Shown in pieces: positions 3,370 to 13,385 of a stretch of DNA of 64,000 bases. Each line of letters starts with the position of its first letter. Position 1 is the first letter of the stretch. The stretch is from the IMG/VR virus record IMGVR_UViG_3300025383_000009; one strand, written 5' to 3'. Made by a program: the position numbers and the translations under genes. This stretch comes from a virus (lineage: Duplodnaviria; Caudoviricetes). Under the pieces are notes generated by a model. It searched no databases. It saw only the letters and a program-made list of their open reading frames with translations, and had not been told where the DNA came from.

Positions 3370-4002
3370 TTAAGCTGTGAGTATAGCCAAAGCCTTATCA
3401 TAGTGGGCTTGTCTCTCTTCGAGACCAAGATATCCACCATTAATAACCTTCGTCATACCTTTGATATCACCTGCATCAGCAAACCTGTTTAGGTTGTTCT
3501 TATTCCAAAACCATAGTGCTGAGTATAATGAAGTAGGTATATCATCTGTCACGAGGTCTGGATCATCCATCACTGTTTCTGGATCTTCGAAGAAGTCAGT
3601 AGCAAACTGTTTATAGTTTGCCTTACCAGTTAATTGGATTGGTCCTCTACCTCTATACTTCCAACCTTCACCTGATGATTCAGGACCATTACCCATCCTA
3701 TTTTCATAGATACGGTTAGCGATCTTTTCAGGTTGACGATGGTAGTTTGCTGCATCGCCATGAAAGTGTGTAGGGAAGAGTTTAACCAGTGCGTCTGAAG
3801 AGTAGTTTAGGTTCTCAGTCAACTTTGTAAAATCTAATGACTCATGTGCACATTGAGCAATGAATGCTGTTACCCTTTGTGCAGTAGTTACTTCAAATTG
3901 AGGCAACTGTGTAACCATAGCGTTAAACCAATCATGCACGTTATGGTTACGTGTGATGATCTGACCTAACTTCTCTTCAGTGAAATCGAAATTAAAACTC
4001 AT
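3370..4002 (-). CDS. Glycoside hydrolase family 19 endolysin (copy 1)
   Basis: FIAQCAHES..F..L.ENLNYS, IANRIY.NRMGNG, GWKYRGRGPIQLTGK.NY, INGG..GLEERQ. Confidence 0.9.
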   Translation of the reverse strand: MSFNFDFTEEKLGQIITRNHNVHDWFNAMVTQLPQFEVTTAQRVTAFIAQCAHESLDFTKLTENLNYSSDALVKLFPTHFHGDAANYHRQPEKIANRIYENRMGNGPESSGEGWKYRGRGPIQLTGKANYKQFATDFFEDPETVMDDPDLVTDDIPTSLYSALWFWNKNNLNRFADAGDIKGMTKVINGGYLGLEERQAHYDKALAILTA

Positions 4003-5746: not shown

Positions 5747-6166
5747 CTATGCTCCAGGAGCTTCAGGTGCGATGAATCCTGCTGCCTCTACAGCCTTACG
5801 AGTGATCTTTTTGTATAGCTTAGGAAGCTTTTGATCCTTGATAGCTATGATAAGCTTAGCCTCAGATGGATGTACTGACTCCAACAGAGATATGAATAAC
5901 GCTTCACGCTTGATAGGTTTTAAGTCTTTCCTAAGGAACACATAGAAACGTCTAAGTTCCTGTGTAAGGATAGCTGGACTCATTCCAATGGGTGCAGCAT
6001 CTGGTCTATACGGAGGTTCATCCTCAGGAAGTAGGAACTTCTTCTCAGGTAGGAAAGCATACTCAAATATGATCTTGAGTGCTGAGTTACCTTTATATTT
6101 TGTTCCTAATAGCTTGGGATCTGCATTGATCTCATCTAATATTTCGGGTAAAAATCTAATTGCCAT
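5747..6166 (-). CDS. Conserved T4-like hypothetical downstream of RNase H (copy 1)
   Basis: LP..EPPY, E.RRFY.F, KRE.LFI.LLESVHPSEAKLII; homologous to 54700..55122. Confidence 0.75.
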   Translation of the reverse strand: MAIRFLPEILDEINADPKLLGTKYKGNSALKIIFEYAFLPEKKFLLPEDEPPYRPDAAPIGMSPAILTQELRRFYVFLRKDLKPIKREALFISLLESVHPSEAKLIIAIKDQKLPKLYKKITRKAVEAAGFIAPEAPGA

Positions 6167-6167
6167 T

Positions 6168-7061
6168 TTAAAAGTCCTCAATTGAGTCGAGTAATAATCG
6201 ACATTTGTTTTTTATAAGGTAATTCATCACAGAATTCTTGTCACCTAGTGGGACAGTCTTCTCATATATATCTATAATACTTTTAGCTAGATCCTCGGGG
6301 ATATAGTCAAAATTAACGAGAGTCTGGTTACGTTGATAGTTACGTCTCTCTTCGTCATTCTTACAAGCATCGATACCCTTCTCAAAGAATTCAGGTAAAC
6401 GCTTTGCTGAGAATGGTTTTTGTCGATCACCCGATACGAACACATCGTCGTTACTTAGGATGTTTGGTATACCATCACCTGAGTCACCCTTAACTATGTG
6501 TGTTATCGTATATTCTTGTATGTCCTTCTGAGATCCTTCTACGAACTTACGTTGCATAGGTGACCACTGACGGACGTTCTTGTTACGTTGTAGCTGTATG
6601 AAATCCTTATCAGATGATACTATTAACACCTTTTGTGGTTCAGAGAATAGTCCTTGCTCCACTAATAAGTTTTCTTGTGTATACTCTGTTAGTACTGCAA
6701 TGATATCATCTGCCTCCGCAGTGTCAATCAATAATAATTTATATGGAAAATAGTTTAATAAGTCTGTACGTAGCTCTGCAAGCGTATCAAATATGAAACC
6801 CCAATCAAGGTCGGACTTATCTCTGTTTGCCTTACGGTGTGCTTTATAATGAGGGAATATAGACTTACGCCAATAGTTACGACCATCACATGCGATGACC
6901 ACCTCCCCATAGTCTTTGTACTTCTTCTTATAAGACTGGATAGTAGATAGTGTCGTATGTCTGATTAGGTTCTTGATCTCTTCAGGAGTTTGATTCTTTA
7001 TATCCTTCTGAAAGGGTAAGATGTTACTTAATGCGATTTGACTGTAGTCTAAGATTATAAT
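6168..7061 (-). CDS. rnh: T4-type RNase H / 5'-3' exonuclease (copy 1), apparent ATT start
   Basis: Frame is open 53 codons upstream of the track ORF (IIILDYSQIALSN...); ACDGRNYWRK, EADDIIAVL, SSDKDFIQLQ, GDSGDGIPN motifs; SD AAGGAG 8 nt before ATT at 7061. Confidence 0.9.
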   Translation of the reverse strand: MIILDYSQIALSNILPFQKDIKNQTPEEIKNLIRHTTLSTIQSYKKKYKDYGEVVIACDGRNYWRKSIFPHYKAHRKANRDKSDLDWGFIFDTLAELRTDLLNYFPYKLLLIDTAEADDIIAVLTEYTQENLLVEQGLFSEPQKVLIVSSDKDFIQLQRNKNVRQWSPMQRKFVEGSQKDIQEYTITHIVKGDSGDGIPNILSNDDVFVSGDRQKPFSAKRLPEFFEKGIDACKNDEERRNYQRNQTLVNFDYIPEDLAKSIIDIYEKTVPLGDKNSVMNYLIKNKCRLLLDSIEDF

Positions 7062-7136
7062 TTTGTTTTCTCCTTAATAAGAGTCCATTCTATAGTGTTG
7101 GCTCTTTTTTCACGTATTTTTATATTTCCATAATCT

Positions 7137-7325
7137 CTAAATTTTGAAGATATACTGCCTACTGGATATCCAACGCATCTTCTTAGGTGAGTTCTTCTTC
7201 TTGTTTGATACGATCTCAGGGATATCCACATCACTCTCATATACTGAGGTGACTTGATCTGAGTTGATAGCGATTTGTTTTGTTGCATTGCCATCGAATG
7301 CATTTTCAAATAATACGATTGGCAT
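7137..7325 (-). CDS. Small hypothetical protein
   Basis: 62 aa, TAATG-coupled to upstream gene. Confidence 0.55.
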   Translation of the reverse strand: MPIVLFENAFDGNATKQIAINSDQVTSVYESDVDIPEIVSNKKKNSPKKMRWISSRQYIFKI

Positions 7326-8419
7326 TAGAACGCTCCCAATAAAATAGTTTCTTCGTTGATCCGACCATTTGGAACTGTTGGCTTGGTCGTTAAAGCCTTT
7401 GCTGCTGTATTCAAATTCTTTTTACTTATAGATAAGTCTTTGAAGAACTTCTCAGGATTCCTAAGTGTCCATGACCATGACTTAGCTACACTGTAATTAA
7501 TTATAGTTGTACCCTTAACTGATAATAAGTCTGAGTCATCAGCTATATAAGCCACAAGTTTTCTATACTTGATATTATATGCCCATAACTCCTTAGCACC
7601 AACGATGTCTGTAGGATTACATGACTTAAGATTCAATAGATCGTGCTTAAACATATACTTAAGTTTCTTAACTAATACTGCAGGAGGCTTAACCTTAACT
7701 ACCCTTGGCTTCTTAACAGTAACTTGATGTTGAGCACAGTCATCTACAATAGATTGGATCGCAGCTCTAAACTTTTTAAGTTCTGTCTTAGTAAGGAATG
7801 AATAGCCTTCTGTAAGTTGTTCATCTGTACCAGTCAATGCTTCATCTATCTCATCAACGTTAAGCTTATAGTAGTCACCGATACGTTTAGCGACCATGCC
7901 TGACACGTTGTTAGATAACAAGTGTGCTTTAGTATTGAAGTCCCACGTTTTAGAATGGATAAACTTATCAATAGCATAGTCGATGTCCTCAGAGGCAGCA
8001 CGAGCTGCATCAGTCACACGTTGATCTATAGAGATGACTGGTGCCTTAGGACGATCGTCTACTATAGGTTGATTATAAGAATAGCACTCGTATAATGAGT
8101 CAAGCTTATCTTGTATACCCTTTTGATCCTTATCAGATAGATGCTCACCTTTATTGAGTATAGTAATAAGAGATCCTAATGATAGGAACTCATAATCTGG
8201 CGCCTTTGATAAGACATCATAATATTTCTTATTAGTCTTCTTAAGATAATTATGTACGGCCTTAGCACGTTCACTGTTATCCATATTAAGGTTATAGTAT
8301 CCTAAAGCTTTCATCAAAGACGTACGATAGTCGTCTTGTGTTACCACAGGAGCGCCAGCACCTATGCCTTTAGCGATAGCCTTTTCTTGCCATTCTTTGG
8401 TTGGTTTTTTAGTTTTCAT
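7325..8419 (-). CDS. Conserved T4-like hypothetical upstream of RNase H
   Basis: 364 aa; central part homologous to 53382..53804 (DEQL.EGYS.LTKT.LKK..A.I.SI.DDC). Confidence 0.75.
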   Translation of the reverse strand: MKTKKPTKEWQEKAIAKGIGAGAPVVTQDDYRTSLMKALGYYNLNMDNSERAKAVHNYLKKTNKKYYDVLSKAPDYEFLSLGSLITILNKGEHLSDKDQKGIQDKLDSLYECYSYNQPIVDDRPKAPVISIDQRVTDAARAASEDIDYAIDKFIHSKTWDFNTKAHLLSNNVSGMVAKRIGDYYKLNVDEIDEALTGTDEQLTEGYSFLTKTELKKFRAAIQSIVDDCAQHQVTVKKPRVVKVKPPAVLVKKLKYMFKHDLLNLKSCNPTDIVGAKELWAYNIKYRKLVAYIADDSDLLSVKGTTIINYSVAKSWSWTLRNPEKFFKDLSISKKNLNTAAKALTTKPTVPNGRINEETILLGAF

Positions 8420-8425
8420 ATTGGC

Positions 8426-8454
8426 AGTATACCATAATTAATTATTAATGTACA
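8426..8454 (-). promoter_or_regulatory. Early promoter TGTACA-17-TATACT
   Basis: TGTACATTAATAATTAATTATGGTATACT, 6 nt before ATG at 8419. Confidence 0.75.
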
Positions 8455-8455
8455 A

Positions 8456-8713
8456 TTATTCAGCTTCTTGGTTTGTAACTGTTTGATAGATCGTCTCAAA
8501 CTCATCGTTCAAAGCTACCTCTTCATTAAAGTTTTGCTTATGATACGTATTAGCAAGCTTAGCAAGCGTTTTCTTAGGGATCTTAAATTCGTCATAAAGG
8601 TTCTTAAGTACTTCTTTTACAAAGTCCTTCTCAGCCTCAACGCGTGTCATAGAATCAGAGATCTCGTTAAGAGCACCTTTGATTTTCTTTTTGTCTTCGT
8701 CTAATAATTGCAT
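8456..8713 (-). CDS. DsbA-like dsDNA-binding protein
   Basis: 85 aa, LA..YHK.N..E....DEFE..Y.TV pattern like T4 DsbA; near rnh as in T4. Confidence 0.6.
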   Translation of the reverse strand: MQLLDEDKKKIKGALNEISDSMTRVEAEKDFVKEVLKNLYDEFKIPKKTLAKLANTYHKQNFNEEVALNDEFETIYQTVTNQEAE

Positions 8714-8735
8714 AATATACCTTTCAAGTTAAAAA

Positions 8736-8934
8736 TAAAAACACACTAGACGAGGCGACCTCGTGGCCACAAGTTCCTGCTTATCTCTAATGTGTTTTTA
8801 TATTTAGTAAGACTCTCGAAACTACGAAGTGCACTCGTAGCTGACCCATCGGAAGCAGTGGCCCGCTGAGCATGCATACCCATTAAAGCACAGCCAGTGT
8901 CCGCATATATTTTATTGATTGGCTGAGAGTCTTA
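8736..8934 (-). ncRNA. Candidate structured non-coding RNA (two closed domains)
   Basis: 10 bp closing stem TAAGACTCTC/GAGAGTCTTA (8808-8934) enclosing several hairpins; second 15 bp stem 8736-8800; G-U wobbles favour the minus strand; no known family recognised. Confidence 0.5.
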
Positions 8935-9066
8935 TTCGTCATAGCCAGGTCCCCAGAAGTGAGGGTCGATACCACCTAGATAGTTTAGGTCTTCGTTATC
9001 ATCCTCTTCAATAGGATCTGGCACTGGTGTAATGTAACCGTCTTTTTTGTCTTTGACATTTAACAT
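8932..9066 (-). CDS. Small acidic protein (44 aa) not in ORF track
   Basis: MLNVKDKKDGYITPVPDPIEEDDNEDLNYLGGIDPHFWGPGYDE; ATG 6 nt after a TATAAT. Confidence 0.6.
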   Translation of the reverse strand: MLNVKDKKDGYITPVPDPIEEDDNEDLNYLGGIDPHFWGPGYDE

Positions 9067-9072
9067 GATATC

Positions 9073-9101
9073 ATTATACCCTTTTTTTGGTTTATTGTAC
9101 A
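9073..9101 (-). promoter_or_regulatory. Early promoter TGTACA-17-TATAAT
   Basis: Hexamers at 9096-9101 and 9073-9078. Confidence 0.75.
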
Positions 9102-9108
9102 TATATTT

Positions 9109-9297
9109 TTAAGCCTTAACACTGTCAACTGTTGCAAAGCCAGTCACCGCTGCTTTACTGTAACCCTTAGACCAAATGCTGCCAGTCCTATTTACAGGTA
9201 CTTCACTGCCTCGTGGACCATGATATGGCAACTGTTGAACCTTACCACCATTATCTAAAAATTCTTGAACTGCTTGTTGAAATTCTTGTTCTGTCAT
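9109..9297 (-). CDS. Hypothetical protein
   Basis: MTEQEFQQAVQEFLDNGGKVQQLP, SD AAGGAG upstream. Confidence 0.6.
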   Translation of the reverse strand: MTEQEFQQAVQEFLDNGGKVQQLPYHGPRGSEVPVNRTGSIWSKGYSKAAVTGFATVDSVKA

Positions 9298-9307
9298 AGC
9301 TTTCTCC

Positions 9308-9718
9308 TTACCAACTTGAATTATAAAATACTTCTTCGCCTCTCGCAATTGCTTCGCGAGCTTTCTTGATGAACTCTAAGTCTGATGCTTTATCATCAGC
9401 ATCGAACCTTGAGTCATAACCAAAGAAGAAACCTTCGGTCATAGGTAACTGGTTAGTCTTAACGCGGGCCTCGATATAATCAAGGTCTGCCTCTGTAAGT
9501 TGAAGCTCAACTCCGTTGAAGTCGATCTTTGAGTCTTCGCTGTACTCGTCAGGATACTCGTCGATCAACCATTGTGGAACCTTAGCTCCCTTATCATGCC
9601 ATAACTCTTCCATAAGACCATGAAGAGCGTTGTGTTTTCTCCAGTATTGAAGCTCCGTTGATGGTGCTTCAGCTGCAGATTCTTTAGCGCGGCTATACGC
9701 ATACATATCTAAACCCAT
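9308..9718 (-). CDS. Conserved phage hypothetical (MGLDMY family)
   Basis: MGLDMYAY, YWRKHNALHG, GFFFG, FY.SSW. Confidence 0.75.
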   Translation of the reverse strand: MGLDMYAYSRAKESAAEAPSTELQYWRKHNALHGLMEELWHDKGAKVPQWLIDEYPDEYSEDSKIDFNGVELQLTEADLDYIEARVKTNQLPMTEGFFFGYDSRFDADDKASDLEFIKKAREAIARGEEVFYNSSW

Positions 9719-9879
9719 TATCTAATCTCCTTGATAAATTTTGCTTTGAGTAAACTTTCAACTATACCATTATCATTATCTTGAGCGGTTAACATCCAAC
9801 CTTCTAAAGTAGTACCTGAAAAGGCATATTGTGGGTTAACAAGGCATTTATAATAATGTCCATTGATTTTAAAAATCAT
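9718..9879 (-). CDS. Small hypothetical (53 aa) not in ORF track
   Basis: MIFKINGHYYKCLVNPQY...KEIR; TAATG-coupled on both ends. Confidence 0.6.
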   Translation of the reverse strand: MIFKINGHYYKCLVNPQYAFSGTTLEGWMLTAQDNDNGIVESLLKAKFIKEIR

Positions 9880-10166
9880 TATGCAGCCTCCCTTTCATCC
9901 TTCATTAAGCTAAACATGATGTGCTTAGCACGGTTGATGAATTGACGAGCTTCGTTAGCTTGTTGAGGTGATACCCAACCTTCGTTAGCACCGTTGAAGT
10001 CAGCACCGATAACTTCTTGTGCATCACTTAACATGCCTGCTGCGAACATCATTTCCTGACCTGGAAAAGCTTGCATTTTTACCATTTGGTCTAACTGAGC
10101 TTTAGTCATACCGTAAGCTTGTTTTTCCCATTCTAAATCTGATCCTATTGTCATTGCTGGTTTCAT
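9879..10166 (-). CDS. Hypothetical early protein, homolog of 62495..62764
   Basis: WE.QAYG..KA.L..MVK.QAFPG.E.MFAAG.LSDAQE shared. Confidence 0.7.
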   Translation of the reverse strand: MKPAMTIGSDLEWEKQAYGMTKAQLDQMVKMQAFPGQEMMFAAGMLSDAQEVIGADFNGANEGWVSPQQANEARQFINRAKHIMFSLMKDEREAA

Positions 10167-10197
10167 ATATCTCTCCGTTTGTTGATTTAATATAACC

Positions 10198-10226
10198 ATT
10201 ATACCGGAAAGTCTAATTAATGTACA
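10198..10226 (-). promoter_or_regulatory. Early promoter TGTACA-17-TATAAT
   Basis: TGTACATTAATTAGACTTTCCGGTATAAT. Confidence 0.75.
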
Positions 10227-10355
10227 TAGGCCCCCTTAAAATAAATAAGGTATACAGATCAATAACTTACGTATTATGCAAGTTATTGATTATATTGGAC
10301 TTTAGTTTGGGTGTGCCCTGGAGCGCCTGGGACAGCGCGGGCTGGAGGATATATG

Positions 10356-12365
10356 CTACTTAGATTGTGCCCTAAAAGTGCCATCCCATTCAGCCGGGAG
10401 GCCCTCTTCCATACGTTCAATCATGTTCATGTAGTACTGCTTGATGGTTACGCTGTCATCTTCGACCAAACCTTTGGCCCATTTGATAGCTTTATCCCAG
10501 TTTCCACGATAGTATTCTTTTATGTATTCATTATGCGCGTGTTTAACTGTCTCACCGATCGTGTAGATCTTAATGCCTTCAGTCTTACCTTTCACTGCGA
10601 TGTTATCTAGTTCAATAACGTTGTAATGGTCTTTAACTAGTTCTGCTGTGCGTGCACCTAAAACAAGCTTAACACCGTACGGCTTAGATTGTCCTTCAAG
10701 CCTTGACGCCAAATTGACTCCGTCACCGAGACAAGTATAGTCAAAACGCTGGCTAGAACCCATATTACCCACAACGACATCAGCAGTGTTAATACCAAGT
10801 CCCATCCCGAAAGCCGGTACGCCTTCTTTAGCAATCTCTTGATTGAACGCATCTAAGTCTCCTAACATTGATAGTGCAGTCTTAACTGCGTTGAGAGCAT
10901 GATCTTTATCATCAAGTGGAGCATTCCAAAAAGCCATCTGTGCATCACCAATATACTTATCAAGTGTTCCGTTGTTCTCTATGATCTTAGCAGTCATAGC
11001 TGTCATGTAACGATTCATGATCTTAGTTAAGCCTTGTACATCCTTACCATAGTGTTCTGATATGGTTGTGAAGCCTCTTACGTCTGTAAACATGATACTT
11101 AATTCTCTTGTTTCACCACCAAGCTTTAATAGTTCTGGGTTCTTTTGTAGTTTATCAACCATTGCTGGTGATAGGTATGTACCAAACTGTTTCTTGATCT
11201 GTAGTTTTTGGTTTAACTCGCTTACAAACTTAACAGTATATGTATGAGCATATACGATAGCCAAAGCAACGATAGGAAAAATCCCATCCAAAAGAACGCC
11301 GTAATGAGAGAAAACATAACTAGAAGCGTAATACAAAAAGCCAAGAAGAAGCAAAATAGGGATAATAGCATATTTCCACCTTGATAGGATAATGATAAAG
11401 ATTGATAATAATATGACTGCTAATACTTCAGCGCCATCTGCCCAGCCAGGTCGTGATATGCTAGTACCTGATGTGAGCGTGTCTAGAACTGACGCTTGAA
11501 GGTAATGAGGAAAGAGTCCACCTCGAGCTGTTGCAACTGGGTTGTTAAGTCCCTTTGCGGTAAGCCCAACAATGACGATACCTCCGTTAAATGATTCTGG
11601 GAGGTCCATAAGACTGTGTTCAATTGGAGTCGAGCTCCAGTCGACCCAGATACGACCGATTGGGTCGGTTGTAATTTTGGAGAAGCTTGGGATTCGAACA
11701 GCTTCGATTCCTGAAACGGAAGATTTGACTTGGAAACTTGGGTCTCCGACTGCGACACGCAAAGTTTCGAGAGTAATACTTGGGTAGAGCAAGCCTCCGC
11801 TTGATACGACCATAGGGATACGACGAACAACACCATCAATTTCAGGTAAGACATTTACAACTCCTATTCCAGCAGCTTTGTTATTAAATAGTTCAATGTT
11901 AGGTTGGATCCCAGGGTAATCAATAGTGAAGTCATGAGCTGGTGATCCAATCTCAGAGACTCCCGGTCTAAATGCTTGTCTAACTTGTTTATCTGTCGAT
12001 GCTACCTGAGGTAAGACGACAGGGTGTCCAGCAAGACTATCAACCAAGTTGGCATCGCGTCCAAAGCGATCAGAGTCAGGCATAAAGATATTAAAAACAA
12101 CAAGACCAGCATGACGGTGATAAAGATCCTCGATAATATTTGCATATTGACTCCTTGGAAATGGGAATTGACCAAGTCTTTCAATCGACTTATCATCGAT
12201 GTTAACCACGTGGACTTGCTTGGAAACGGTCTGTGGTTTACTAGTAATTAGTGTATCAAAGTACCTTAGTCGAACTGACTGCACAAAAGATGGGTCAGAT
12301 GCTCTAATACCTACTAGCAGAGCTAACGTTAACAGTGCAAACCAGGGTGATAATAATCTTTTCAT
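10356..12365 (-). CDS. CHASE2-domain class III adenylyl cyclase
   Basis: N-terminal TM, CHASE2 motifs (VVNIDDKSI..LGQFPFPR, DGVVRR.P), three TM helices, FTDVRGFT, DKYIGD, YTCLGDGVNLASRLE. Confidence 0.92.
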   Translation of the reverse strand: MKRLLSPWFALLTLALLVGIRASDPSFVQSVRLRYFDTLITSKPQTVSKQVHVVNIDDKSIERLGQFPFPRSQYANIIEDLYHRHAGLVVFNIFMPDSDRFGRDANLVDSLAGHPVVLPQVASTDKQVRQAFRPGVSEIGSPAHDFTIDYPGIQPNIELFNNKAAGIGVVNVLPEIDGVVRRIPMVVSSGGLLYPSITLETLRVAVGDPSFQVKSSVSGIEAVRIPSFSKITTDPIGRIWVDWSSTPIEHSLMDLPESFNGGIVIVGLTAKGLNNPVATARGGLFPHYLQASVLDTLTSGTSISRPGWADGAEVLAVILLSIFIIILSRWKYAIIPILLLLGFLYYASSYVFSHYGVLLDGIFPIVALAIVYAHTYTVKFVSELNQKLQIKKQFGTYLSPAMVDKLQKNPELLKLGGETRELSIMFTDVRGFTTISEHYGKDVQGLTKIMNRYMTAMTAKIIENNGTLDKYIGDAQMAFWNAPLDDKDHALNAVKTALSMLGDLDAFNQEIAKEGVPAFGMGLGINTADVVVGNMGSSQRFDYTCLGDGVNLASRLEGQSKPYGVKLVLGARTAELVKDHYNVIELDNIAVKGKTEGIKIYTIGETVKHAHNEYIKEYYRGNWDKAIKWAKGLVEDDSVTIKQYYMNMIERMEEGLPAEWDGTFRAQSK

Positions 12366-12494: not shown

Positions 12495-13385
12495 CTATGC
12501 TCCTTGTATTTTAAACTTAATATACTCTGTTATCAAGTCAGCGACGTCAGTCTCACAATACTGTTCAAACCCTTTAAATCCTGGGTTTGAGTTAGCTTCG
12601 CATACTCTAAAGCCTCTTTTGTCGAATAGTAAATCCACACCTGCAATATCTAGCTTAAGTACTTTTGCAGTCTCTCTAGCTATATATTCAATCTCGTCTG
12701 TTATCTCGTAGTTATGACCAGTGCCACCATTAGTGATGTTAGCTCTGAAGTCACCCTCTGGTGCTGTACGTCTCATAGCTCCTACTACTTTACCACCTAT
12801 GACAAGAACCCTTAAGTCCTCACCTGGACGGTCACCAAGATATTCCTGTACTATCATCGTCTTCTTAGCGTTTAAGATATCGATGAACTCCATCATCTTT
12901 TTGTACTCTCTTATGGTCTCACAGAGGTGTACACCTTCCCCATAAGAACCTGATACCAGCTTAACGACACACGGAAAGCCTATGTTATCAGTCACTAAGT
13001 CATCGTCTATAGGCAACCTTACTAACATCGTGTTTGGTATAGGTAACCCGTTCTTACTTAATATCTGTGATGTCCTTAGCTTATCTTTTACTATCTCGAC
13101 AGCAGAGCTTGAGTTAACACACATCACGCCTGCTTGTTCAAAGTGTCTTATCACTGCTAGCTGGAAAGGTAGTATGCCTGCACCCAACCTAACCAATAAT
13201 AACTTTGGTAACTCTATCGTCTCACCGTCGTACTTGATACCTTCACGTAGGTCTTTATCTACGATGATGTCAAAGTTATCAGGATGGCAGACACGAGCAG
13301 TTATACCTTTTGATGTAAAGCTTTCTACGAGCTTATTAGTCTCGTACTCGTTTCTTTCCTGCTTTGATAATATAATTACAGTCAT
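12495..13385 (-). CDS. RimK-family ATP-grasp ligase
   Basis: KDKL.T.Q.L...GLPIP.T, GFP.VVK..SGSYGEGV, IVQEY, DLRVLVIGGKV, FRAN...GG, IAGVDLL, EANSNPGF. Confidence 0.88.
   Translation of the reverse strand: MTVIILSKQERNEYETNKLVESFTSKGITARVCHPDNFDIIVDKDLREGIKYDGETIELPKLLLVRLGAGILPFQLAVIRHFEQAGVMCVNSSSAVEIVKDKLRTSQILSKNGLPIPNTMLVRLPIDDDLVTDNIGFPCVVKLVSGSYGEGVHLCETIREYKKMMEFIDILNAKKTMIVQEYLGDRPGEDLRVLVIGGKVVGAMRRTAPEGDFRANITNGGTGHNYEITDEIEYIARETAKVLKLDIAGVDLLFDKRGFRVCEANSNPGFKGFEQYCETDVADLITEYIKFKIQGA

What the first reader, a model, noticed from the sequence alone, without database searches (positions are those of the whole stretch)
8736..8934. Candidate novel structured RNA between an early micro-ORF and dsbA
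Seen on the minus strand: domain 1 (8808-8934) is closed by a perfect 10 bp stem that begins at the upstream stop codon and holds AGCCA/TGGCT, GTGC/GCAT, GCTC/GGGC and CTACGA/TCGTAG helices around a multibranch junction. Domain 2 (8736-8800) is a 15 bp stem enclosing ATAAG/CTTGT and ACGAGG/CCTCGT hairpins, ends in a U-rich tract and sits about 20 nt before the dsbA start. It is GC-rich relative to its flanks, and G-U pairs are consistent only with the minus strand. It is not a tRNA and I cannot assign a family. It could be a riboswitch/attenuator, ribozyme or sRNA.
Basis: seen in the sequence. Interest (0 to 1): 0.65.

Follow-up and report, generated by a model that had tools for sequence, protein, structure and literature searches.

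The report
Two self-pairing small phage RNAs
The flagged stretch is not a switch controlling the next gene but two separate small folded RNA genes that freshwater phages usually carry among their tRNA genes; each keeps a self-complementary loop that probably lets two copies pair, and their job is unknown.

Summary
The structured RNA is real, but it is two independent RNA genes, not one dsbA leader. RNA-1 (8808-8934, minus) belongs to an uncatalogued family: 118 distinct variants in freshwater T4-like phage contigs, a near-invariant core of about 30 nt and strongly covarying stems (96.8% paired; window held out, 44.9 bits). RNA-2 (8736-8800) belongs to a second family (18 variants), mostly lying directly after a tRNA gene. 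RNA-1 occurs 17 times in the excised spacer of two-piece tmRNA genes and directly precedes dsbA in only 2 of 118 cases. Both families keep palindromic hairpin loops whose letters change while self-complementarity is kept (83/84 loops, 14 hexamers, at least 17 switches among near-identical copies), the signature of intermolecular kissing pairs. No Rfam family, cultured phage or T4 RNA C/D matches. Best reading: processed, trans-acting, self-dimerising RNAs whose core binds a host factor (target inferred, not shown). Expression is untested. The scan has noted similar cassette RNAs on other DNA, one probably of this family.

The parts
8808..8934 (-). RNA-1: member of an uncatalogued three-way-junction RNA family of freshwater T4-like phages (usually 85-120 nt; 127 nt here because of an insert)
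   Evidence: 118 variants; 44.9 bits, E 4.6e-9, window not in the seed
8925..8934 (-). P1 5' strand, starting in the TAA stop of the micro-ORF; pairs with 8808-8817
   Evidence: sequence; all 8 modelled P1 pairs change on both sides; swapped-partner control median 5 bp against 12 bp
8808..8817 (-). P1 3' strand
8905..8923 (-). Near-invariant 5' core strand, mostly unpaired and A/U-rich; its first three bases probably pair with GGU at 8844-8846
   Evidence: one G-U to A-U change in L277: weak support for that pairing
8898..8904 (-). P2 5' strand (GCGGA plus two covarying pairs); pairs with 8848-8857 across a 2-nt bulge
   Evidence: G-C to A-U in L297; the two outer pairs are standard in 94/94 distinct inserts
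8848..8857 (-). P2 3' strand
8858..8897 (-). Lineage-specific extension of P2 (window and L030 only), most likely a long irregular hairpin
   Evidence: only two sequences, so its inner fold is not settled by covariation
8872..8877 (-). Palindromic loop AUGCAU at the tip of P2: candidate intermolecular kissing site
8842..8847 (-). Conserved 3' core strand GGGUCA
8821..8841 (-). P3 hairpin with palindromic tip GUGCAC (8829-8834): second candidate kissing site
   Evidence: (7/7 pairs change on both sides)
8736..8800 (-). RNA-2: member of a second uncatalogued family; one long irregular hairpin with a 15-bp closing stem and conserved internal loops
   Evidence: 95.6% paired, 13 pairs with double change
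8760..8773 (-). Apical hairpin of RNA-2 with palindromic tetraloop GGCC (8765-8768)
   Evidence: the loop is GGCC, GUAC, GCGC, UGCA or UCGA in all 18 variants
8932..9066 (-). Upstream 44-codon ORF, probably leaderless; conserved small protein of no known family; neighbour, not part of the RNA
   Evidence: directly upstream in 13 variants
9073..9101 (-). Sigma-70-like promoter match (TGTACA, 17 nt, TATAAT) that could drive the transcript
   Evidence: consensus match only (the same pair recurs at 10226 and, with TATACT, at 8454)
8456..8713 (-). T4-type DsbA transcription regulator gene (not the disulfide oxidoreductase); Shine-Dalgarno at 8720-8725 lies outside RNA-2
   Evidence: PF11126 E 1.4e-9; phrog_639

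Best explanation
Two small non-coding RNA genes from the tRNA/tmRNA cassette of large freshwater T4-like phages. They are co-transcribed with their neighbours and closed by long terminal stems. Where they sit between tRNAs or in the tmRNA spacer, tRNA-processing enzymes (RNase P and 3' trimming) would release them as discrete RNAs; in this genome, which has no tRNA at this locus, release would need other nucleases or they stay in the mRNA. Each presents a G/C-rich palindromic loop that pairs with the same loop of a second copy, giving homodimers; RNA-1 variants with two such loops could form larger assemblies. The near-invariant unpaired core of RNA-1 is most likely a binding surface for a host factor, so that the dimer acts in trans as a decoy or sponge during infection. 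Shown: families, folds, strand, context, palindrome conservation. Inferred: expression, processing, dimerisation. Guessed (about 35%): a host protein as target.
For: Covariation. Palindrome in 83/84 distinct short P2 loops at a fixed position against 43 +/- 4 in shuffles; 6 nt or more in 71 against 12 +/- 3; 14 hexamers. At least 17 tetramer switches inside clusters that are 90% identical elsewhere. 63 of 71 hexamers hold 4 or more G/C while most G/C-containing palindromic tetramers are under-represented in the window. All 11 long-P2 variants carry UGCA in P3. P2 and P3 palindromes match each other in only 9 of 70 (4.5 expected), so the pairing is mostly not intramolecular. 79/118 have a tRNA or tmRNA within 500 nt, 17 lie in the spacer of a permuted tmRNA, 93/93 tRNAs are co-oriented. 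RNA-2 starts within 7 nt of a tRNA 3' end in 13 of 17 homologs. Both RNAs are kept here without tRNAs. The same kind of loop covariance marked bridges seen by cryo-EM in OLE and GOLLD (PMC12286853).
Against: No expression or biochemical data. The core's invariance is partly built into the search patterns; two relaxed scans added only L277 and L297. About 30% of P3 loops are not palindromic. No fixed neighbouring protein gene suggests a partner (about 80 different first downstream ORFs). Phage template switching can perfect DNA palindromes without selection (own knowledge).
Confidence: 0.62

Rival explanations
1. Structured spacers: the closing stems only help to position processing sites of flanking tRNA/tmRNA, the interior is replaceable filler, and the palindromes are maintained by template-switch mutation.
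For: Closing stems often extend into the upstream tRNA's CCA end (L196, L213, L219, L443). Different cassettes replace each other at one locus. Double substitutions between palindromes could arise in one template switch.
Against: About 30 mostly unpaired bases are near-invariant while the stems have 50 different 5' arms. The RNAs persist where no tRNA is near (39/118, the window included, some with short flanks). The mismatches flanking the palindrome are not corrected, and the palindromes are G/C-rich in an A/T-rich genome.
Confidence: 0.12
2. RNA-1 is a new class of small self-cleaving ribozyme that cuts tRNA-operon or mRNA precursors, in the manner of theta ribozymes next to phage tRNAs.
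For: Small size, invariant core, freely varying stems and tRNA adjacency fit the profile of self-cleaving ribozymes (own knowledge).
Against: No match to any Rfam ribozyme. No circularly permuted form among the hits. A cut inside a stem-closed domain would not make mature tRNA ends. It does not explain the palindromes.
Confidence: 0.1
3. RNA-1 is a small-molecule aptamer acting in trans, for example a sponge for a nucleotide signal of anti-phage defence, with dimerisation organising the pocket.
For: Three-way junction with an invariant A-rich strand resembles aptamer architecture; a glutamine-riboswitch-like RNA was predicted at the two-piece tmRNA of phage Melnitz (PMC9004378).
Against: No riboswitch family match; no gene association pointing to a ligand.
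Confidence: 0.1
4. One two-domain riboswitch or attenuator controlling dsbA.
For: RNA-2 ends 22 nt before dsbA; a micro-ORF stops at the start of RNA-1; AGCCA/UGGCU is a possible alternative helix in this variant.
Against: dsbA follows directly in 2 of 118 variants; the domains occur separately; no terminator; Shine-Dalgarno outside the stem; copies inside an excised tmRNA spacer cannot control a gene.
Confidence: 0.03

Closest known systems
Phage T4 RNA C and RNA D (species 1 and 2 stable RNAs, rnaC/rnaD)
   Same: Small (119-139 nt) structured RNAs of unknown function in the tRNA cluster of a T4-type phage (PMC9697503). RNA D begins with a hairpin whose 7-nt loop equals the long P2 loop of L374.
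   Different: No hit of the RNA-1 model in the T4 locus or genome; different fold; no known palindromic-loop covariation (not tested).
GOLLD, ROOL and OLE RNAs
   Same: GOLLD and ROOL lie near phage tRNA islands; all three self-assemble through kissing loops, and palindrome-preserving loop changes supported those bridges in OLE and GOLLD (PMC12286853).
   Different: 550-830 nt, against 65 and about 100 nt here; no Rfam match; one or two candidate bridges rather than many.
Intervening sequence of permuted (two-piece) tmRNA, Rfam RF04321/RF01849/RF01850
   Same: 17 RNA-1 variants and one RNA-2 variant fill this excised segment.
   Different: The segment is normally treated as discarded; the database paper reports a tRNA-Ala and a repetitive element as passengers (PMC11915505). 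Here the passenger also exists as a free-standing gene, as in the window.
Retroviral dimerisation initiation site (HIV-1 DIS)
   Same: Hairpin with a G/C-rich 6-nt palindromic loop, different palindromes in different lineages (own knowledge).
   Different: Analogy only: a cis element of a genomic RNA for packaging, not a small RNA of a DNA phage.
Y RNA-like YrlA (RF02553) and other tRNA mimics
   Same: Long closing stem, tRNA neighbours, and a T-loop-like GUUCGAAAC in some P3 loops.
   Different: Only 19/118 P3 loops have the UCGA centre; 41 have UGCA and 37 no palindrome; no D-arm or CCA; no YrlA hit on the element.

Membership tests
Any Rfam 15 family | Covariance-model score at or near the gathering threshold | tested here: not met
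   Window 6000-12000 at E<=10, 12 RNA-1 loci, L216 and 4 RNA-2 loci: only flanking tRNA/tmRNA and weak chance hits
tRNA / tRNA mimic (YrlA type) | Acceptor stem with CCA, D arm and conserved T loop | tested here: not met
   ARAGORN negative; P3 loop varies freely and is T-loop-like in a minority
T4 RNA C / RNA D | Sequence and structure homology | tested here: not met
   Model R1 has no hit in L268 with filters off or in NC_000866
T4 RNA C / RNA D (as a kind: stable small RNA of a phage tRNA cluster) | Encoded co-oriented among tRNA genes | tested here: met
   For the families, not for this copy; the window has no tRNA
T4 RNA C / RNA D (as a kind) | Accumulates as a discrete stable RNA | not testable with these tools
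   No RNA holder listed
Riboswitch / attenuator | Fixed position 5' of a functionally coherent gene set | tested here: not met
Riboswitch / attenuator | Expression platform (terminator or sequestered Shine-Dalgarno) | tested here: not met
Self-cleaving ribozymes (hammerhead, twister, pistol, hatchet, HDV-like/theta) | Class-specific core and topology | tested here: not met
   No Rfam hit; family fold is a stem-closed three-way junction
Self-cleaving ribozymes | Self-cleavage | not testable with these tools
   Needs an in vitro assay
Homo-oligomeric RNAs with symmetric kissing loops (OLE/GOLLD-like behaviour) | Loop palindrome conserved through changing sequence | tested here: met
Homo-oligomeric RNAs with symmetric kissing loops | Physical oligomer | not testable with these tools
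   Needs native gel, mass photometry or cryo-EM

The most novel reading that the evidence does not exclude
RNA-1 is the founding member of a new functional RNA class: a roughly 100-nt self-assembling phage RNA whose invariant core is a catalytic site or a binding pocket for a host defence signal or defence protein, and the palindromic-loop cassettes of phage tRNA arrays form a modular set of RNA-only counter-defence factors.
Probability: 0.2. Interest if true: 0.88.

Novelty: new variant of a known kind. Interest (0 to 1): 0.58.

Why it matters
Why phages carry non-tRNA RNAs in their tRNA clusters is an old open question (T4 RNA C and D are still described as of unknown function, PMC9697503). 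These two families are small, have a sharply defined invariant core and come with natural loop variants that predict which copies should and should not pair. That makes dimerisation, cleavage and partner binding directly testable with short transcripts. If they dimerise, they are miniature counterparts of the OLE/GOLLD/ROOL assemblies. Their presence in the excised spacer of two-piece tmRNA also shows that this spacer can carry a conserved passenger RNA.

Tried and rejected
Rfam scans of the window and of 17 homolog loci: nothing beyond flanking tRNA/tmRNA; the mir-3045 hit (E 0.002, 30 bits against 90) only reflects a long hairpin. blastn against 50,697 cultured phage records with the window, L252 and L443: short chance matches only. 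Model R1 on Melnitz, BUCT-ZZ01, DLP_6, ACP17 and T4: no match, without a positive control genome in that call; the Melnitz tmRNA spacer holds a different sequence. GTDB genomes: two true copies, both on contigs of 0.5 and 2 kb in MAGs, probably misbinned phage DNA. The first loose pattern returned almost only chance hits. RNAalifold on the raw MAFFT alignment recovered only P2 because variable stems were out of register; replaced by anchored counts and a model-based alignment, which leans towards the given structure. No whole genome held. Literature: no paper holds the core words; the 10,006 viral candidates of PMC10690425 could not be checked because its supplements are not held, so prior listing there is not excluded. 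Intramolecular P2-P3 kissing as the general rule was rejected (9/70), though both loops are UGCA-centred in the window. RNAcofold gives an extended duplex for both RNAs, which is expected for any hairpin and is not counted as evidence.

Full report
Setting. The window is a T4-like phage fragment (35% GC). The flagged stretch lies on the minus strand between a 44-codon ORF (8932-9066) and a T4-type dsbA gene (8456-8713; PF11126; phrog_639). A sigma-70-like promoter match ends 6 nt before the ORF's ATG. The window has no tRNA or tmRNA and no whole genome is held.

Observation. The 10-bp stem that starts in the stop codon, the CTACGA/TCGTAG hairpin, the 15-bp stem of domain 2 and the distance to dsbA are as described. 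Single-sequence folding gives z -1.9 for domain 1 and -4.3 for domain 2 and does not discriminate the strands. Rfam has no family for either. The decisive evidence came from relatives.

RNA-1 family. Loci fetched with DsbA showed domain 1 upstream in close relatives, usually without the 40-nt insert of the window. Several contigs exceed 200 kb. The fold is a three-way junction: P1 (median 12 bp, 50 different 5' arms; swapped partners give 5 bp), a near-invariant mostly unpaired strand of 18-19 nt, P2 (GCGGA/UCCGY, a 2-nt bulge, two more pairs that are standard in 94/94 distinct inserts), a conserved GGGU-Y-A linker and a freely varying P3 hairpin. On a model-based alignment of 97 sequences, 96.8% of cells pair and 18 of 25 pairs change on both sides; slid controls give 26-43% (the alignment leans towards the structure, but the anchored counts agree). 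The window was not in the seed and scores 44.9 bits, the next best site 11 bits. Core invariance is partly built into the patterns; scans that freed either half of the core added only L277 (G-U to A-U in a proposed 3-bp core helix) and L297 (G-C to A-U in P2), both keeping the pairing. The family fold is 4.5 kcal/mol more stable, but that helix remains a possible minor fold in this variant.

RNA-2 family. The interior of domain 2 recurs letter for letter in other phages directly after a tRNA 3' end. A wider scan gave 17 homologs; 13 start within 7 nt of a tRNA end and one fills a tmRNA spacer. The U-rich end is the stem's 3' strand. In most close relatives of this phage a third, unrelated hairpin RNA takes the place of RNA-2.

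Context. 79 of 118 RNA-1 variants have a tRNA or tmRNA within 500 nt, all 93 nearby tRNAs are co-oriented, and 17 variants fill the excised spacer of a permuted tmRNA. dsbA lies within 1.5 kb downstream in 31, at 123-1280 nt, and follows the cassette directly in two; the micro-ORF is directly upstream in 13. These are therefore free-standing RNA modules of the tRNA cassette, not regulators of dsbA. In this genome the two RNAs are kept although no tRNA is present, which argues that they matter in themselves.

Palindromic loops. 83 of 84 distinct short P2 loops contain a palindrome of 4 nt or more centred 5-6 nt from the stem in most cases (shuffles 43 +/- 4, maximum 59); 71 reach 6 nt (12 +/- 3); 14 hexamers and 8 tetramers occur. 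Within clusters 90% identical elsewhere the tetramer switches at least 17 times, each needing two coordinated changes. 63 of 71 hexamers have four or six G/C, whereas most such palindromes are under-represented in the window. All 11 long-P2 variants have UGCA in P3, and about 70% of all P3 loops are palindromic. All 18 RNA-2 variants have a palindromic tetraloop. The window has three: AUGCAU (8872-8877), GUGCAC (8829-8834) and GGCC (8765-8768). Adjacent bases in one loop cannot pair with each other, and P2 and P3 palindromes rarely match (9/70), so pairing with a second copy is the simplest reading. The same argument supported bridges seen by cryo-EM in OLE and GOLLD (PMC12286853). A mutational origin by template switching is the main alternative; it does not explain why the flanking mismatches stay or why the palindromes are G/C-rich.

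Mechanism. Shown: two families, their folds, strand, mobility and loop palindromes. Inferred: transcription with the neighbours, release by tRNA-type processing where tRNAs or tmRNA flank them (established for two-piece tmRNA, PMC11915505), and homodimer formation. Least certain: the role of the core. I favour binding of a host protein as decoy or sponge (about 35%), ahead of passive spacer (12%), new ribozyme (10%) and small-molecule aptamer (10%). No neighbouring gene points to a partner, and no expression data could be obtained.

Comparison. It works like T4 RNA C/D (small RNAs of the tRNA cluster, function unknown, PMC9697503) but is not homologous. It may self-associate like OLE/GOLLD/ROOL but is far smaller. 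It is not a tRNA mimic as a family: only 19 of 118 P3 loops have the T-loop-like UCGA centre. No cultured phage record holds either RNA, and no paper holds the core words; the candidate list of PMC10690425 could not be checked. Earlier scan notes describe similar stem-closed cassettes on other DNA, one probably of the RNA-1 family; they are unchecked leads, not support.

Verdict. Real; two new RNA families of a known kind with a well-supported self-pairing signature; function open. Interest 0.58.

Noticed in passing
L001:1866-1926 (+) and about 25 other loci: A third uncatalogued hairpin RNA usually follows RNA-1 in close relatives, in the place of RNA-2; its tip mostly carries GUAC or GGCC and its closing stem covaries (z -3.7).
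   Followed up: partly
L008:290-400, L021:2840-2990, L001:2005-2115, L215 upstream of RNA-1: Further structured-looking non-coding modules in the same cassette, each shared by several loci.
   Followed up: no
window 9109-9297 (-): 62-aa protein with a weak match to the SutA RNA-polymerase-binding domain (PF20661, E 3e-4, below cut-off): possible phage modulator of host RNA polymerase.
   Followed up: no
window 8932-9066 (-): Conserved acidic micro-protein ending in a DPHF-x-GPG-Y/F-DE motif, probably leaderless here; no Pfam or PHROG family.
   Followed up: partly
window 10356-12365 (-): CHASE2 plus class III adenylate/guanylate cyclase gene in a phage.
   Followed up: no
window 12495-13385 (-): RimK-family ATP-grasp ligase.
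   Followed up: no
window 3370-4002 (-): Glycoside hydrolase 19 protein, probably the endolysin.
   Followed up: no
L196, L213, L219, L244, L443, L450: The closing stems of both RNAs extend to pair with the CCA end of the upstream tRNA, which could compete with its maturation.
   Followed up: no
L268:1554-1672 (T4 rnaD) and L236/L371/L374: The first hairpin of T4 RNA D has the same or a near-identical 7-nt loop as the long P2 hairpin of several RNA-1 variants; possibly a shared small module, possibly chance.
   Followed up: partly
whole window: GATC is strongly under-represented (observed/expected 0.40), more than other palindromic tetramers.
   Followed up: no
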